A stretch of 4,830 bases of DNA from a virus (Duplodnaviria > Heunggongvirae > Uroviricota > Caudoviricetes): IMG/VR virus record IMGVR_UViG_3300029107_000017; one strand, 5' to 3'. The notes below the pieces were generated by a model. The model saw only the letters and a program-made list of their open reading frames with translations, was not told the origin of the DNA and did not search any database. Position 1 is the first letter of the stretch. Each line of letters starts with the position of its first letter. A program made the translations under genes and the position numbers. Shown one piece after another: positions 833 to 4,543 of the stretch.

Positions 833-904
833 GCTGACCTCATTTCCCCTTAACGCCGGGGTAGCGGAACTGTTTGCTGAGAACACCGTGCGGTGTCTTG
901 ATGA

Positions 905-965
905 GTAGAATTTAGAATAACCTAAGAATGATGGTCAAGCTTTTTGTGTAGAAAAACCTAAGTTT
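905..965 (-). promoter_or_regulatory. Putative leftward promoter for the ydfA-like operon, flanked by two operator-like palindromes
   Basis: Read on the - strand: TTGACC (rc of 933-938), 18-nt spacer, TAAATT (rc of 909-914). Palindromes TTTAG-aataac-CTAAG (911-926) and TGTAG-aaaaac-CTAAG (947-962) bracket the -35. No transcript data. Confidence 0.4.
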
Positions 966-973
966 CTTGATGT

Positions 974-1010
974 AAAAAACACAAGTATTTGAAAGTTTGT
1001 GCTTTTTATT
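974..1010. terminator. Weak bidirectional terminator-like hairpin
   Basis: A6 (974-979), stem CACAA (980-984) / TTGTG (997-1001) with a 12-nt loop, then CTTTTTATT (1002-1010). AT-rich 5-bp stem, so predicted stability is low. Confidence 0.25.
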
Positions 1011-1036
1011 ACAGAGAGTGGCGAAAAAAAGAGGGG

Positions 1037-1444
1037 TTATTTATTTGCGCTTCTTTTGCGAGCTTTGAGTAGTTCTTCAAAAAGTTTGTTGAAATTCTCA
1101 ACTCGAGCACGCATCTCTGACAACAGAGCCTTTTGCTCTGACTCAGGCAGTGCGTCGAACAGTTGAAGCAACTCTTTTTGATCTTCTGTCAGATTGACTG
1201 GCTGATTATCTGGGATCGGTTCGCCTGGTTGCTTATCTTCATCTCCAAAAAGAAGCCAGGTCGGCGAGCACTGAAGCGCCTGGCTCAGTGCGAATAATCT
1301 CTTCCCCGCTGGCTGTGTTTCATCTCTTTCCCATTGAGAAATTGTTACGTGAGCCACTTTGACCAGCTTACCTAATGCGGCCTGAGACAGTTTTAATTTT
1401 TTACGCCTGTATAAGAGGCGAGCACCGAAGGTTTCGTTTTTCAT
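1037..1444 (-). CDS. dicA: DicA-like prophage repressor (XRE-family HTH, 135 aa, no peptidase domain)
   Basis: ORF track 1037..1444 (-). Same length as E. coli DicA (135 aa) and shares long motifs with it as I recall the sequence: SQWER, LFALS..LQCSPTW.LFGDEDKQP, LPESEQ, EMRARV.NFNKLFEELLKAR. Divergent from a Cro-like gene. Confidence 0.85.
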   Translation of the reverse strand: MKNETFGARLLYRRKKLKLSQAALGKLVKVAHVTISQWERDETQPAGKRLFALSQALQCSPTWLLFGDEDKQPGEPIPDNQPVNLTEDQKELLQLFDALPESEQKALLSEMRARVENFNKLFEELLKARKRSANK

Positions 1445-1520
1445 ATTAGGTAATTCTAATTTCTCTTGACTTAGGTTTCTCTACAATCTAGTTTCCTTAG
1501 GAAAATCTAAGGAGTTCGAT
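1445..1520. promoter_or_regulatory. Divergent promoter/operator region between the repressor and the Cro-like gene
   Basis: Three YTTAG-N6-CTAAR sites: ATTAG-gtaatt-CTAAT (1445-1460), CTTAG-gtttct-CTACA (1470-1485), CTTAG-gaaaat-CTAAG (1496-1511), centres about 25 bp apart. Rightward elements: TTGACT (1466-1471), TACAAT (1482-1487), TAAGGAG (1508-1514). Leftward: TAGAAT (rc of 1453-1458) 8 nt before the repressor ATG. Confidence 0.55.
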
Positions 1521-1748
1521 ATGTTGAAAATTGATGCTATAGCGTTTTTTGGCAGCAAAACAAAGCTTGCCAATGTCGCAGGAGTTAGGCTGGCAAGCGT
1601 TGCAGCATGGGGGGAACTGGTTCCTGAAGGTCGCGCGATGCGCCTGCAAGAGGCATCCGGCGGGGAACTTCAGTACGACCCCAAAGTTTATGACGAATAT
1701 CGTAAGGCAAAGCGGGTGGGGCGGTTGAACAATGAAAATCACCCCTGA
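1521..1748 (+). CDS. dicC: Cro/DicC-like small HTH regulator (75 aa)
   Basis: ORF track 1521..1748 (+). TAAGGAG SD with a 6-nt spacer before the ATG. HTH-like segment GSKTKLANVAGVRLASVAAW. Divergent from the DicA-like repressor, as dicC is in Qin. Confidence 0.8.
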   Translation: MLKIDAIAFFGSKTKLANVAGVRLASVAAWGELVPEGRAMRLQEASGGELQYDPKVYDEYRKAKRVGRLNNENHP

Positions 1749-2283
1749 ACAGGTTTGTGAGGCTCTAGATGCCTGGGTATGCCGACCAGGAATGACACAG
1801 GAGCAGGCGACGATATTAATCACGGAAGCATTCTGGGCTCTGAAAGAACGCCCGAACATCGATGTTCAACGCGTCACGTTTAATGATGGCGAGGTTGATC
1901 AACGGGCGCTGGGCGTTAACCGGGTGAAGATATTCGAACGCTGGAAAGCTATCGACACCAGGGATAAGCGGGAAAAATTCACGGCGCTGATTCCGGCAAT
2001 TATGGAGGCTATCCGGATCAGCGATTTCAGGTTGTATTGTGAAATTACTGACGGAAAAAGCATTACGTACATGATCGCCGGGTTAAACAAAGAATATGGC
2101 GATGTGGTGGAGTCCGGGCTGCTTTTTGCGGATCCATCTGTTGTGGAACGTGAGACTGACGAGCTTATAGAAAAAGCTATTGCTTTCAAGCATGCGTATC
2201 GTCAGCAATATCAATATTACTTTGCAGATAAACAAATGTCTGCCAGGGGTTCGTATGAGTATCGATGCACTACGATGGGCTAA
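1732..2283 (+). CDS. YdaT-family protein (183 aa), CII-like regulator or putative toxin
   Basis: ORF track 1732..2283 (+). Overlaps the Cro-like gene's 3' end by 17 nt. MKI... N-terminus and the segment KREKFTALIPAIMEAI resemble Rac YdaT (QREKIQKLIPAILAIL) as I recall it. Confidence 0.7.
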   Translation: MKITPEQVCEALDAWVCRPGMTQEQATILITEAFWALKERPNIDVQRVTFNDGEVDQRALGVNRVKIFERWKAIDTRDKREKFTALIPAIMEAIRISDFRLYCEITDGKSITYMIAGLNKEYGDVVESGLLFADPSVVERETDELIEKAIAFKHAYRQQYQYYFADKQMSARGSYEYRCTTMG

Positions 2284-3295
2284 AAAGGTGAAAACCGGCA
2301 GTTCATCCAGTAAGTCAGTATTGACCTGGCTTGCTGATATGTGCGGTGCCGATTTGTGTGCATACCCGTCTGTATCTGCACTGGCAGAAGTAACGGAACT
2401 GAACAAAAAGACTGTGCAGGACAGCTTACGATACCTGATGGAGATTGGGTTAATTGTTGATACCGGTGAGAGAAAAGGCCGAACAAAGCAAATCGTGGTG
2501 TACCGACTTATCGGTGTAGAAGAAAGCGTTGCCGAGCCTGAATACACCCAAAAACGGGAGTCTTTAAAGGTGAGTAAAATTGGTGCTGTTAATAAAAACA
2601 GTACCGAAAATGGTTATGTTTCAGCACAAAACAGACCCAAAAACGGAACTCTTAGCTGCATGGAAAATAACCAAAGACACCCAAATTTTCCATCAAAGAC
2701 ACCCAAAAACGGATCACGGAACCCAAAGGAATCCAAAGATCTAAACCCCACACATAACGCACGCGAGAGTGCTCCGACCAGTGAGCAGGAAGTTTTGTCG
2801 TTACAGGCAGCACCCCTTGTATTCCTGGATGGCCTGAGCGAACCCATCGGAAAATTTCCGATGACCGATAGCTGGTATCCGTCACGGGATTTTCGACGAC
2901 GGGCTGCGTTGTGGGGGATGGCTTTGCCGGAGACAGAATTTACACCTGCTGAACTTGCCGCCTTCCGGGACTACTGGGCAGCGGAGGGGAAAGTGTTTAC
3001 GCAGATTCAGTGGGAGCAGAAATTCGCCCGTCACGTAAATCACGTCAGGGCGCAGGTTAAACCAGTCAGCAAGGGGGTAAACCATGCAGCAGCACCAGGT
3101 GGCACCGCATCACGGGCAGTTCAGGAAATTCGGGCAGCACGTGAGCAGTGGGAACGTGAAAACGGATTTATCAGCGACGGAAACAGCCTGGAAGCTGTGG
3201 GAACTCATGGGGGAGGTTTATTCGAACCGCTGGACCCAGAAGAACGGGGCCGCACCTTCGAAGCTCTGGATTGCACAGATTGGTGCGATGACTGA
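2255..3295 (+). CDS. Replication initiation protein: N-terminal HTH domain fused to a DnaT-like C-terminal domain (O-like)
   Basis: Track ORF 2180..3295 begins at a TTG. The in-frame ATG at 2255 has AGGGG 5 nt upstream and is the likely start (346 aa). N-terminus matches phage HTH initiator proteins. Residues around GKFPMTDSWYPSRDFRRRAALWGMALPE...YWAAEGKVFTQIQWEQKFAR closely parallel the E. coli DnaT C-terminal region as I recall it. Confidence 0.8.
   Translation: MSIDALRWAKKVKTGSSSSKSVLTWLADMCGADLCAYPSVSALAEVTELNKKTVQDSLRYLMEIGLIVDTGERKGRTKQIVVYRLIGVEESVAEPEYTQKRESLKVSKIGAVNKNSTENGYVSAQNRPKNGTLSCMENNQRHPNFPSKTPKNGSRNPKESKDLNPTHNARESAPTSEQEVLSLQAAPLVFLDGLSEPIGKFPMTDSWYPSRDFRRRAALWGMALPETEFTPAELAAFRDYWAAEGKVFTQIQWEQKFARHVNHVRAQVKPVSKGVNHAAAPGGTASRAVQEIRAAREQWERENGFISDGNSLEAVGTHGGGLFEPLDPEERGRTFEALDCTDWCDD
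2544..2730. repeat. Phased ACCCAAA(AACGG) direct repeats inside the initiator gene; candidate origin iterons
   Basis: ACCCAAA at 2546, 2635, 2679, 2701, 2721; three copies extend to (A/G)ACCCAAAAACGG(A/G). Spacings 89, 44, 22, 20 bp are near multiples of two helical turns. AT-rich stretch at about 2562-2632. The repeats also encode a Pro/Lys/Asn-rich interdomain linker. Confidence 0.4.
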
Positions 3296-3749
3296 GCAGC
3301 AAATCCGACAGGTCTGCCGCCAGTGCATGGACCGCTGCCGGGCGGGTGAAACATGGCCTCCGGACCTGGCTGAGTTTGTGGCGCTGATTTCTGAAAGCGG
3401 AGCCAATCCATTCGGTCTGACGGTGGATGCCGTGATGGAGGAGTACCGTCGCTGGCGCAACGAGTCCTGGCGATACGACGGGAGCGATAAATACCCGTGG
3501 TCTCAGCCTGTGCTGTATCACATTTGCCTCGAGATGCGTTCAAAGGGGATTGAGCGGCAGATGACCGAAGGGGAGTTAAAACGGCTTGCAGAACGGCAGC
3601 TGACGAAATGGGCAAAGCATGTTAGTAACGGCCTGAGTGTTCCGCCTATCCGGCGACAACTGGCAGCACCCAAACGTCCTGCGGGACCAACGCCAATTGA
3701 GTTGCTGAAACAGGAATATGAACGCCGGAAAGCGGCTGGGTTTGTCTGA
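3084..3749 (+). CDS. Lambda P-like replication protein (helicase loader), 221 aa
   Basis: ORF track 3084..3749 (+). ATG at 3084 preceded by AGGGGG (3072-3077) with a 6-nt spacer. Central and C-terminal segments (WPPDLAEFVAL; YPWSQPVLYHICLEMRSKGIERQMTEGELKRLAERQL) parallel lambda P (FLPSPGQFVAWC; YPWKSNAHYWLVTNLYQNMRANALTDAELRRKAADEL) as I recall it. Confidence 0.8.
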   Translation: MQQHQVAPHHGQFRKFGQHVSSGNVKTDLSATETAWKLWELMGEVYSNRWTQKNGAAPSKLWIAQIGAMTEQQIRQVCRQCMDRCRAGETWPPDLAEFVALISESGANPFGLTVDAVMEEYRRWRNESWRYDGSDKYPWSQPVLYHICLEMRSKGIERQMTEGELKRLAERQLTKWAKHVSNGLSVPPIRRQLAAPKRPAGPTPIELLKQEYERRKAAGFV

Positions 3750-3781
3750 TTTGAGAAGTAATTTTTACCGGGAGGAAATTT

Positions 3782-4543
3782 ATGGAGACTGTTTTTGACG
3801 CACTGAAAGCGATGGGAAAAGCCACGTCGGTAGAGCTGGCTGCGCGACTTGATATCAGTCGTGAAGAAGTGCTGAACGAGCTGTGGGAACTGAAAAAGGC
3901 TGGCTTCGTTGATAAAAGCGTATACACCTGGCGTGTGGCTTATAACAACGTTCAGCAGGAACAGCCAGCGCCGGCAGAACTGTCGGAAGAAACCACCACG
4001 GCAACAGTCGCTAAAATTTCGGAGAGCGATTTAACTGCGACGATTGAACAACGTGGACCACAAACGGCGGATGAACTGGCTACGCTGTCCGGTACCACAT
4101 CCCGCAAAGTGGCTTCAACGCTGGCAATGGCAATCAGCAAAGGTCGTCTGATTCGTGTAAACCAGAACGGTAAATTTCGTTACTGCATACCGGGTGATAA
4201 TTTACCAGCCGAGCCGAAAGTTGAATCGGTAGCGGAAACCGATGGTAAAGCCTTTCCTCAGCCAGCAGGTGTTGCGTTACCAGTACAGGAAGTTGCAACA
4301 CAGGAATATATTAAAACAGAAACTGTGGCTGATATTGTGCAATCGTTGCCATCGTTTACTGAAACGCGAGCGGATGACCTGGTTTTACCATCGCTGCATA
4401 TGGCAAACCGCGAATTGCGTCGGGCGAAAAATCATGTCCAGAAGTGGGAGCGTGTCTGCGCCGCGCTGCGGGAACTGAACAAGCACCGGGATATTGTCCG
4501 ACAGATTGTCGATTCCTCCAGTCGTATTGTGTCGGAAAAGTGA
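3782..4543 (+). CDS. Prophage protein of unknown function with two winged-helix-like modules and a charged helical C-terminus (253 aa)
   Basis: ORF track 3782..4543 (+). GGGAGG (3770-3775) with a 6-nt spacer before the ATG. Residues about 4-51 and 84-135 share a G.T..EL....(S/T)R..V...L.....G pattern, suggesting an internal duplication. Confidence 0.8.

What the first reader, a model, noticed from the sequence alone, without database searches (positions are those of the whole stretch)
2255..3295. Initiator is a fusion of an HTH origin-binding domain and a DnaT-like domain
The C-terminal half parallels the primosomal protein DnaT closely, while the N-terminus is a phage-type HTH initiator. Paired with a P-like helicase loader, this suggests the phage recruits host replication restart or helicase-loading machinery through the DnaT-like domain.
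Basis: partly seen in the sequence, partly recalled or inferred. Interest (0 to 1): 0.4.

Follow-up and report, generated by a model that had tools for sequence, protein, structure and literature searches.

The report
Prophage replication initiator with DnaT-type domain
This is the ordinary replication-initiator gene of a lambda-like E. coli prophage, a DNA-binding head joined to a domain also found in the host protein DnaT; databases already annotate this architecture and a 2017 paper describes it, so the finding is correct but not new.

Summary
Window 2255-3295 (+) encodes a 346-aa protein with an N-terminal winged helix (aa ~16-88), a ~100-aa disordered linker, a three-helix bundle (aa 194-270) and an acidic tail. 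The bundle is 51% identical to E. coli DnaT residues 82-157 (Pfam DnaT E=6e-17; PDB 6aep/4ou6 E~1e-18 to 1e-19; modelled fold 0.8-1.0 A from 4ou6). The next gene is lambda-P-like.

Only DnaT's C-terminal ssDNA-binding domain is shared, about 77 residues and not the whole C-terminal half. DnaT's oligomerising N-domain and its PriB-binding acidic linker are absent.

The architecture is already known:
- RefSeq calls it "DnaT-like ssDNA-binding domain-containing protein", and it occurs in 1254 of 5426 complete E. coli genomes.
- PHROG 1032 calls it a replication initiation protein.
- Brezellec et al. 2017 described HTH_36 + DnaT_C next to a P-like gene (DopC/DopE).

I add two points. The linker DNA carries conserved iterons (CCRAAAACGG), a likely origin inside the gene as in lambda O. 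The P gene really starts at 3084 and overlaps the initiator's last 212 nt.

The likely mechanism is lambda-O-like origin binding, a DnaT-type ssDNA filament on melted origin DNA, and P-mediated DnaB loading. Recruitment of the host restart machinery is not supported.

The parts
2255..3295 (+). O-type replication initiator CDS (346 aa)
   Evidence: ORF; annotated identically in GenBank LC567818 and RefSeq; phrog_1032 'replication initiation protein' full length, E=5e-89.
2255..2530 (+). N-terminal winged-helix (HTH_36-type) domain, aa 1-92; the presumed iteron-binding head
   Evidence: AlphaFold: H17-30, H40-47, H51-64, wing strands 67-74 and 80-85. Foldseek winged-helix hits at E~2e-3. Pfam HTH_36 is weak. 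Most conserved part of the family.
2531..2833 (+). Disordered linker, aa 93-193; its DNA carries the candidate origin
   Evidence: pLDDT 27-38 over aa 89-195. Variable length and PKNG/PENG repeat number among homologues.
2546..2557 (+). Iteron copy 1, ACCCAAAAACGG (read as T-Q-K-R, a different codon phase from copies 2 and 3)
2635..2646 (+). Iteron copy 2, ACCCAAAAACGG (read as P-K-N-G)
2701..2712 (+). Iteron copy 3, ACCCAAAAACGG (read as P-K-N-G)
   Evidence: No Markov-1 simulated window (0 of 2000) has a 12-mer three times within 200 bp.
2672..2685 (+). Partial iteron-like repeat CAAAGACACCCAAA (second copy at 2694-2707, overlapping iteron 3)
   Evidence: family D7
2560..2620 (.). AT-rich stretch (68-70% AT) between iterons 1 and 2; candidate unwinding element
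2735..2735 (.). Mosaic junction (codons for K-D-L-N-P-T-H-N). Downstream DNA is ~90% identical in prophages whose initiators have unrelated N-domains.
   Evidence: Megablast hits cover only query nt 481-1041 in Rac-SA53, an Actinobacillus phage and many E. coli genomes. Protein junction LNPTHNA.
2834..3064 (+). DnaT-C-terminal-domain-like three-helix bundle, aa 194-270
   Evidence: Seven of 10 ssDNA-contact residues and 10 of 14 filament-interface residues of DnaT are identical.
3065..3292 (+). C-terminal tail, aa 271-346 (helix 287-302, then an acidic disordered end); aa 277-346 are encoded by the DNA that also encodes the P N-terminus in another frame
   Evidence: The tail is also present in the Vibrio phage D77 O-like protein, which has no DnaT domain.
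3071..3077 (+). Shine-Dalgarno-like AAGGGGG, 6 nt upstream of the ATG at 3084
   Evidence: An equivalent purine-rich motif and ATG occur in E. coli Rac-SA53, Klebsiella and Enterobacter loci.
3084..3749 (+). P-type DnaB helicase loader CDS, 221 aa (RefSeq annotates only 3288-3749)
   Evidence: Pfam Phage_lambda_P aligns from aa 56 and phrog_109 from aa 19. Aa 18-221 align with the non-overlapping P of phage PAS61. The frame is open and ATG+SD are conserved in the three enterobacterial lineages above; Vibrio phage D77 has an ATG-initiated open frame at the same distance (212 nt).
3084..3295 (+). 212-nt dual-coding overlap: initiator tail in one frame, P N-terminus in the +1 frame

Best explanation
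This is the O-type replication initiator of a lambdoid (Qin/Rac-like, dicA-dicC immunity) E. coli prophage. It is built from exchangeable cassettes.

Proposed mechanism:
1. The N-terminal winged helix binds direct repeats (core CCRAAAACGG, three copies at 2546-2712). These lie in the DNA that encodes the protein's own disordered linker, so the origin sits inside the gene, as ori-lambda sits inside O.
2. Binding of several initiator molecules destabilises the adjacent AT-rich stretch (2560-2620).
3. The C-terminal DnaT-type three-helix bundles are tethered by ~100-residue flexible linkers. They polymerise on the exposed single strand as the DnaT C-terminal domain does (two nucleotides per protomer). 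This holds the origin open and marks the helicase-loading site.
4. The P-type loader, whose gene overlaps the initiator's last 212 nt, delivers host DnaB to this complex through the initiator's C-terminal cassette (bundle and/or tail).

What is shown and what is inferred:
- Shown by sequence or structure comparison: the domain architecture, the repeats and their conservation, the conservation of DnaT ssDNA-binding and filament residues, the P gene and the overlap, and the cassette boundaries.
- Inferred by analogy with lambda O/P and with DnaT: actual iteron binding, origin melting, filament formation at the origin, and which surface contacts P.
For: Gene order: dicA-like repressor, dicC/Cro, CII/YdaT-like, this gene, P-like. 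This is the lambdoid early-right layout.

Architecture: winged helix, disordered linker, DnaT-type bundle and tail.

Iterons:
- The exact 12-mer ACCCAAAAACGG occurs three times within 170 bp and nowhere else in the window, even at two mismatches; 0 of 2000 simulated sequences match this.
- The core recurs 4-5 times, always on the + strand and always in the linker, in initiator genes with the same head from Klebsiella, Enterobacter and phage PAS61.
- It is absent from genes with other heads: Rac-SA53 (DUF1376) and Vibrio phage D77, which has its own different palindromic repeats in the same place.
- Copy 1 is read in a different codon phase (TQKR) from copies 2 and 3 (PKNG). The conserved thing is therefore the DNA, not the peptide.
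- Lambda's annotated iterons lie at a similar relative position within O.

Cassette boundary: it falls ~20 nt after the last iteron, so head and iterons travel together, and bundle, tail and P travel together.

DnaT-type function: ssDNA-contact residues F124, Y127, W128, K133, F135, K143 and R146 of DnaT (PMC4132743) are identical here as F237, Y240, W241, K246, F248, K256 and R259. Five are invariant and two nearly invariant (K246, with R in 2; R259, with N in 1) across 23 family members. Ten of 14 filament-interface residues are identical.

Recent structural work: the DnaT C-terminal domain filaments on lagging-strand ssDNA, and the authors propose that this marks the helicase-loading site in a DnaA-like arrangement (PMC13377028).

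P-like loader.
Against: - No experiment was found for this family in the searched literature.
- The iterons are only three strong copies with irregular spacing (89 and 66 bp), unlike lambda's four tightly spaced ones.
- The AT-rich stretch lies between the repeats rather than beside them.
- Three ssDNA-contact positions differ from DnaT (S147 to H, I150 to H, G151 to V), as do some filament-interface positions (A126 to D, H136 to T in this protein). Filament geometry may therefore differ.
- The whole-protein model has low confidence (mean pLDDT 52), although the two domains reach 70-86.
- Lambda O manages without any DnaT-like domain, so an ssDNA filament is not obligatory for this kind of initiation.
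- This copy sits in a prophage whose ability to replicate is unknown.
Confidence: 0.7

Rival explanations
1. First reader's reading. The DnaT-like domain plugs the phage initiator into the host replication-restart primosome (PriA, PriB, PriC), and this pathway brings in DnaB.
For: In the 2026 preprimosome structures the DnaT C-terminal domain itself docks on PriA (HD2 and CTD surfaces) (PMC13377028). The phage domain is 51% identical to it with a near-identical modelled fold.
Against: The PriB-binding acidic linker (Asp66/Asp70) and the N-terminal oligomerisation domain of DnaT have no counterpart, since homology starts at DnaT residue 82. A P-type DnaB loader is encoded in the same cassette with overlapping genes. 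In lambda such a loader takes DnaB directly and needs no Pri proteins (established knowledge). The same domain is paired with P-like genes in three separate contexts: this family, phage PAS61, and DopC/DopE (PMC5509034). The PriA-contact residues are not listed in the accessible text, so their conservation could not be tested.
Confidence: 0.12
2. The DnaT-like bundle is mainly the protein-protein docking site for the P loader, the role of lambda O's C-terminal domain. ssDNA binding would then be incidental or lost.
For: The bundle occupies the position of lambda O's P-interacting C-terminal domain. It is always inherited with the P gene across the mosaic junction. DnaT-like domains pair with P-like genes repeatedly (PMC5509034).
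Against: All three base-stacking aromatics and the three phosphate-binding basic residues of DnaT are kept, and they are invariant or nearly so in the family. That is hard to explain if ssDNA binding were irrelevant. P-type loaders with a homologous N-terminus also pair with a non-DnaT C-domain that shares only the tail (Vibrio phage D77). The tail is therefore at least as good a candidate for the P contact. The two roles are not exclusive.
Confidence: 0.15
3. The gene is not an initiator but a prophage-borne DnaT paralogue or accessory primosomal protein, or a decaying remnant, and the origin lies elsewhere.
For: Some GenBank records call homologues 'primosomal protein I'. Pseudogenised copies exist in decayed prophages.
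Against: There is no match to the DnaT N-domain, and the NCBIfam score is far below the DnaT equivalog cut-off. The gene has the canonical O position, an origin-type winged helix and conserved in-gene iterons. The ORF is intact and 96-99% identical to thousands of database copies.
Confidence: 0.03

Closest known systems
RefSeq/PGAP 'DnaT-like ssDNA-binding domain-containing protein' of E. coli lambdoid prophages (e.g. WP_000020541.1); PHROG 1032 / 3992
   Same: Same protein at 98-99% DNA identity, with the same neighbours: YdaT-family/CII-like upstream, replication protein P downstream, then DUF1627. It is found in 1254 of 5426 complete E. coli genomes, including O157:H7 and O111:H8. It also occurs in PPompW prophages of Stx2a-phage-carrying strains.
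   Different: Nothing of substance differs. The databases name the domain but do not annotate the iterons, and they start the P gene 204 nt too late.
DopC/DopE of Cellvibrionales and Oceanospirillales (Brezellec et al. 2017, PMC5509034)
   Same: Identical architecture as published: HTH_36 N-terminus plus the DnaT C-terminal motif (PDB 2ru8), directly upstream of a lambda-P-like gene. The authors derive the pair from lambdoid phage O/P genes.
   Different: DopCE are resident chromosomal genes without iterons (as stated in the paper). Here the pair is phage-borne and the gene carries conserved iterons, which makes it the presumed ancestral, origin-bearing form. Direct sequence comparison with DopC was not done.
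Bacteriophage lambda O protein and ori-lambda, with lambda P
   Same: Same position in the early-right operon. A DNA-binding N-domain, iterons inside the linker-coding part of its own gene (lambda at 39-48% of the gene, here at 28-44%), a C-terminal module inherited with P, and a P-type DnaB loader downstream.
   Different: No detectable sequence homology to lambda O (hhalign probability 1.5%). Lambda's C-terminal domain (PF09524 type, per PMC5509034) is replaced by a DnaT-type bundle plus tail. Lambda O and P overlap by 4 nt, whereas here the overlap is 212 nt. P is only ~25% identical to lambda P, over 113 residues.
E. coli primosomal protein DnaT (PDB 4ou6, 2ru8, 6aep, 9zbt)
   Same: The C-terminal three-helix ssDNA-binding and filament domain: 51% identity, 0.8-1.0 A rmsd, and key ssDNA contacts conserved.
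   Different: No DnaT N-terminal oligomerisation domain and no acidic PriB-binding linker. It is partnered with a P-type rather than a DnaC-type loader, carries an origin-binding head, and is about twice as long.
'Primosomal protein I' of Escherichia phage vB_EcoP_PAS61 (Uetakevirus)
   Same: HTH_36 head, five or six CCCAAAAACGG iterons in the linker, a DnaT domain, and a P gene next door; 38% identity.
   Different: It ends just after the DnaT domain, with no tail. Its P gene overlaps by only 4 nt and is a closer relative of lambda P (Pfam E=1.5e-56).

Membership tests
DnaT (primosomal protein I, NCBIfam NF002770 equivalog) | C-terminal three-helix ssDNA-binding domain (Pfam PF17948; DnaT 84-153) | tested here: met
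   PF17948 61.5 bits against cut-off 25. PDB DnaT domains E~1e-18 to 1e-19. Fold rmsd 0.8-1.0 A. Seven of 10 ssDNA contacts identical.
DnaT (primosomal protein I, NCBIfam NF002770 equivalog) | N-terminal oligomerisation domain (DnaT 1-~60) and full-length match above the equivalog cut-off | tested here: not met
   The NCBIfam match covers only profile positions 82-166. The score of 93.9 bits is below the 201-bit cut-off. The N-terminus is a winged helix instead.
DnaT (primosomal protein I, NCBIfam NF002770 equivalog) | Acidic linker (Asp66/Asp70) that docks in the PriB groove | tested here: not met
   No alignment upstream of DnaT residue 82. The feature is as described in PMC13377028. The 98-aa linker here is net basic, 14 K/R against 10 D/E.
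DnaT (primosomal protein I, NCBIfam NF002770 equivalog) | Docking of the C-terminal domain on PriA | not testable with these tools
   The interface residues are shown only in a figure of PMC13377028, and no complex prediction tool was available.
DnaT (primosomal protein I, NCBIfam NF002770 equivalog) | dnaT-dnaC operon context | tested here: not met
   The downstream gene is P-type (PF06992), not DnaC/IstB-type.
Lambdoid O-type initiator (functional class) | Located between the cII-like gene and the helicase-loader gene in the early-right operon of a lambdoid prophage | tested here: met
Lambdoid O-type initiator (functional class) | N-terminal sequence-specific DNA-binding domain | tested here: inconclusive
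   A winged-helix fold and O-like PHROG matches are present. DNA binding itself was not tested.
Lambdoid O-type initiator (functional class) | Iterons (origin) within its own coding sequence, co-varying with the N-domain | tested here: met
   Three exact 12-mers here. The same core occurs 4-5 times in the linker of same-head genes from three other lineages. It is absent, or replaced by different repeats, in genes with other heads, and its conservation is independent of reading frame. Origin activity itself is untested.
Lambdoid O-type initiator (functional class) | Sequence homology to lambda O (PF04492 N-domain / PF09524 C-domain) | tested here: not met
   No Pfam hit to either family. hhalign of the family profile against lambda O gives probability 1.5%.
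DopC-type architecture (HTH_36 + DnaT_C, next to a P-like gene; PMC5509034) | HTH_36 N-terminus, DnaT C-terminal motif, P-like gene immediately downstream | tested here: met
   HTH_36 is below the Pfam cut-off in this protein but above it in homologues.
DopC-type architecture (HTH_36 + DnaT_C, next to a P-like gene; PMC5509034) | Resident chromosomal gene without iterons, in dciA- and dnaC-lacking bacteria | tested here: not met
   This gene lies in a prophage context in E. coli and contains iterons.
Lambda P helicase loader (PF06992), for the neighbouring gene | Pfam match above cut-off and full-length alignment to P-type loaders | tested here: met
   61.3 bits against cut-off 26. phrog_109 E=5.6e-63 over aa 19-220. 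27% identity to PAS61 P over aa 18-221.

The most novel reading that the evidence does not exclude
The phage initiator's DnaT-type domain does more than bind ssDNA. Like DnaT's C-terminal domain it docks on host PriA, so the phage would couple origin firing to, or compete with, the host restart primosome. Conversely, cellular DnaT would be a domesticated fragment of this phage initiator family. That direction is hinted at because 58 of 129 sequence clusters carrying the domain are long initiator-type proteins and only 18 are DnaT-sized.
Probability: 0.12. Interest if true: 0.55.

Novelty: already known. Interest (0 to 1): 0.2.

Why it matters
The domain combination itself adds nothing new. It is named in RefSeq and PHROGs and was published for DopC.

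Its modest value is as a natural test of the 2026 proposal that a DnaT C-terminal-domain filament on ssDNA marks the helicase-loading site in a DnaA-like way. Here the same domain is tethered to an origin-binding head and paired with a P-type loader, in a small, genetically tractable replicon present in about a quarter of complete E. coli genomes.

Two practical by-products:
- A candidate origin (iterons) that could be used to type or build replicons from these prophages.
- A systematic mis-annotation of the P gene start, which cuts 68 residues off the loader in RefSeq.

Tried and rejected
- Homology of the family to lambda O by profile comparison: none (hhalign probability 1.5%). The resemblance to O is one of organisation, not sequence.
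- Testing PriA-contact residue conservation: the residues are not given in the text of PMC13377028.
- Literature on 'DnaT-like' phage proteins: no papers.
- The Stx-phage replication-region paper PMC8044961 does not mention DnaT, iterons or HTH.
- Rfam scan of the window: nothing.
- Promoter and terminator scan of 900-3900: nothing above shuffled expectation and nothing between the two genes.
- DnaA boxes (TTWTNCACA): none.
- In-gene iterons in the DUF1376-headed Rac-SA53 initiator: none convincing, so 'origin in the linker' is not shown for every head type.
- The short E. coli hit H28, examined as a possible separate tail+P cassette: it is a truncated pseudogene in a decayed prophage and is uninformative.
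- The upstream TTG at 2180 as a start codon: rejected, because all homologues begin at the MSIDA methionine.
Full report
**Context.** The window is the immunity and replication region of a lambdoid E. coli prophage. It is 98.5% identical over the finding to PPompW prophages of Stx2a-phage-carrying strains, and 98-99% identical to many RefSeq E. coli chromosomes. The gene order is:
- a DicA-like repressor, 1037-1444 (-);
- DicC/Cro, 1521-1748 (+);
- a CII-like/YdaT-family gene, 1732-2283 (+);
- the gene in question, 2255-3295 (+);
- a lambda-P-like gene ending at 3749;
- a DUF1627 gene, 3782-4543.

**Check of the observation.** The 346-aa product has a significant and specific match to the C-terminal domain of DnaT.
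- Pfam PF17948, E=6.4e-17, above its cut-off.
- NCBIfam DnaT, E=8.7e-27, aligned to DnaT 82-166 only and below the equivalog cut-off.
- Solved DnaT domains 6aep, 9zbt, 4ou6, 4ou7 and 2ru8, E=1e-16 to 2e-19.
- Identity to E. coli DnaT 82-157 is 39 of 76 residues.

An AlphaFold2 model built on a 23-sequence family alignment has low overall confidence (pLDDT 52) because half the chain is disordered. It still gives two confident domains:
- a winged helix, aa ~16-88;
- a three-helix bundle, aa 200-268 (pLDDT 73-86).

A disordered linker (aa 89-195) separates the two. After the bundle come one further helix (287-302) and a disordered acidic tail.

Foldseek places the bundle on 4ou6 and 6aeq at 0.8-1.0 A over 70 residues. 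It places the head among MarR/ArsR/TFE-type winged helices.

The HTH_36 Pfam match is below threshold in this protein. It passes in 38-55%-identical homologues. PHROG 'replication initiation protein' and 'O-like' families match the head and the whole protein.

Only aa 194-270 are DnaT-like, and only DnaT's C-terminal domain is represented.

**Is it known?** Yes.
- PGAP names this exact protein 'DnaT-like ssDNA-binding domain-containing protein', next to 'replication protein P'. It is present in 1254 of 5426 complete E. coli genomes.
- PHROGs classes it as a replication initiation or primosomal protein.
- Brezellec et al. 2017 (PMC5509034) described HTH_36 + DnaT_C (2ru8) immediately upstream of a lambda-P-like gene as DopC/DopE. 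They derived the pair from lambdoid O/P genes and drew the parallel with dnaT-dnaC.

**A combinatorial family.** An exhaustive search with the 77-aa domain finds only 129 clusters at 50% identity.
- 58 carry N-terminal extensions of 140 aa or more (initiator type).
- 18 are DnaT-sized.

I scanned 57 of the 58 long ones against Pfam, leaving out one 1403-aa outlier. All 57 hit Pfam DnaT. Their heads are HTH_36 (12), DUF1376 (5), RP-C (2) and lambda-type Phage_rep_O (1); the rest are unclassified.

In E. coli the DNA downstream of a junction at about window 2735 (codons KDLNPTHN) is ~90% identical between prophages whose initiators have unrelated heads.

**Candidate origin inside the gene.** The linker-coding DNA contains the exact 12-mer ACCCAAAAACGG three times (2546, 2635, 2701), plus partial copies. 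No Markov-simulated window, 0 of 2000, shows a 12-mer three times within 200 bp.

The 10-nt core CCRAAAACGG recurs 4-5 times in initiator genes with the same head from Klebsiella, Enterobacter and phage PAS61. In every case it lies on the coding strand and in the linker. It is absent from Rac-SA53 (DUF1376 head) and from Vibrio phage D77. The Vibrio gene has three different, palindromic 21-nt repeats in the same place.

In the window, copy 1 is read as TQKR and copies 2 and 3 as PKNG. The Klebsiella gene likewise has copies in two phases. What is conserved is therefore the DNA motif, not a peptide repeat.

A 68-70% AT stretch lies between copies 1 and 2. Lambda's annotated iterons occupy a similar relative position in O. 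The mosaic junction lies ~20 nt after the last iteron. Head plus iterons thus form one cassette, and bundle, tail and P form another. This is the classical lambdoid specificity arrangement (established knowledge from lambda/phi80/P22 hybrids, recalled and not re-read here).

**The P gene and the overlap.** RefSeq starts P at 3288 (153 aa). The frame is in fact open from 3081, with an ATG at 3084 preceded by AAGGGGG-N6. Three lines of evidence support the earlier start:
- An ATG with a purine-rich SD lies 212-215 nt upstream of the initiator's stop in E. coli Rac-SA53, Klebsiella and Enterobacter. Vibrio phage D77 has an ATG-initiated open frame at the same 212-nt distance; its upstream sequence was not examined.
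- Pfam's P model aligns from residue 56, PHROG 109 from residue 19, and the non-overlapping P of phage PAS61 from residue 18 of the long form.
- In the +1 frame, the other 275 codons of the initiator gene contain 15 stops and the last 71 contain none.

Both frames show protein-level conservation, even between E. coli and Vibrio. Conservation is stronger in the P frame in the distal half.

The Vibrio O-like protein has the tail but no DnaT domain. PAS61 has the DnaT domain but no tail and no long overlap. The tail therefore travels with this P subfamily, and the DnaT-type bundle is an independent cassette.

**What the DnaT-type domain probably does.** Liu et al. 2014 (PMC4132743) list the ssDNA contacts and filament-interface residues of DnaT 84-153.
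- Of the ssDNA contacts, 7 of 10 are identical here. These include all three base-stacking aromatics (F237, Y240, W241) and the three basic phosphate contacts (K246, K256, R259).
- Five of those seven are invariant and two nearly invariant across the 23-member family.
- Of the interface residues, 10 of 14 are identical.

Ducos et al. 2026 (PMC13377028) assign the parts of DnaT as follows. The C-terminal domain docks on PriA and then filaments on lagging-strand ssDNA. The acidic linker (D66/D70) binds PriB. The N-domain oligomerises and may recruit DnaB/DnaC. They liken this arrangement to DnaA.

The phage protein has only the filament-forming part, on a long flexible tether behind an origin-binding head. 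My best reading is that the heads bind the iterons and the tethered bundles coat the melted strand. P, encoded in the same cassette, then delivers DnaB.

Recruitment of PriB or PriC, or of DnaB/DnaC through DnaT-like surfaces, has no sequence support, because those DnaT parts are missing. PriA docking cannot be tested here.

**Verdict.** The functional gloss is only partly supported. The architecture is already annotated and published, so interest is low. The in-gene iterons and the conserved 212-nt initiator/loader overlap, with a mis-annotated P start, are small additions worth recording.

Noticed in passing
window 3084-3295 (P-like CDS 3084-3749): The P-type loader gene starts at 3084 (ATG with AAGGGGG SD), not at 3288 as in RefSeq or 3327 as in GenBank LC567818. 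It overlaps the initiator's last 212 nt in the +1 frame. The ATG+SD are conserved 212-215 nt upstream of the initiator stop in E. coli Rac-SA53, Klebsiella and Enterobacter prophages. Vibrio phage D77 has an ATG-initiated open frame at the same distance. Both reading frames are conserved.
   Followed up: yes
window 2546-2712: Three exact ACCCAAAAACGG repeats in the linker-coding DNA. They are conserved in related initiator genes regardless of codon phase, which makes this a candidate origin inside the gene. It is not annotated in any record examined.
   Followed up: yes
L008 (Vibrio phage D77) 2116-2181 and 2501-3160: The Vibrio O-like gene has its own palindromic 21-nt repeats (CCTAGTGAY-N4-TGTCACC, three copies) in its linker. 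A 219-aa P-like ORF overlaps it by 212 nt but is annotated only from 2834 as a hypothetical protein. It may relate to the phage-derived VdhL loaders of Vibrionaceae (PMC11087808); this was not tested.
   Followed up: partly
window 2735-3749, PHROG phrog_15931: One PHROG profile of 482 positions matches both the initiator (aa 161-345, E=6e-106) and the P-like protein (aa 4-221, E=1e-103). This suggests that some phage records carry fused or frameshifted O-P ORFs across the overlap.
   Followed up: no
proteins P0121-P0248: Among 129 clusters at 50% identity with the DnaT-type domain, 58 are long initiator-type proteins and only 18 are DnaT-sized. Heads include HTH_36, DUF1376, RP-C and one lambda-type Phage_rep_O (P0138). 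This hints that cellular DnaT is the derived, domesticated form.
   Followed up: partly
proteins P0025, P0030, P0052, P0091 (E. coli homologues): Some DUF1376-headed initiators with the same DnaT-type cassette carry an inserted T5orf172/MUG113 (GIY-YIG-like) domain between head and linker.
   Followed up: no
window 1732-2283: The gene upstream of the initiator is named 'toxin YdaT family protein' by PGAP, but PHROG 163 calls it a CII-like transcriptional activator (E=8e-42). It overlaps the initiator start by 29 nt.
   Followed up: no
window 3782-4543: The DUF1627 protein downstream of P has an N-terminal winged-helix signature (weak TrmB, HTH_20 and ArsR-type hits) and a faint Ren-like PHROG hit. 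It sits where lambda has ren. Its function is unknown.
   Followed up: no
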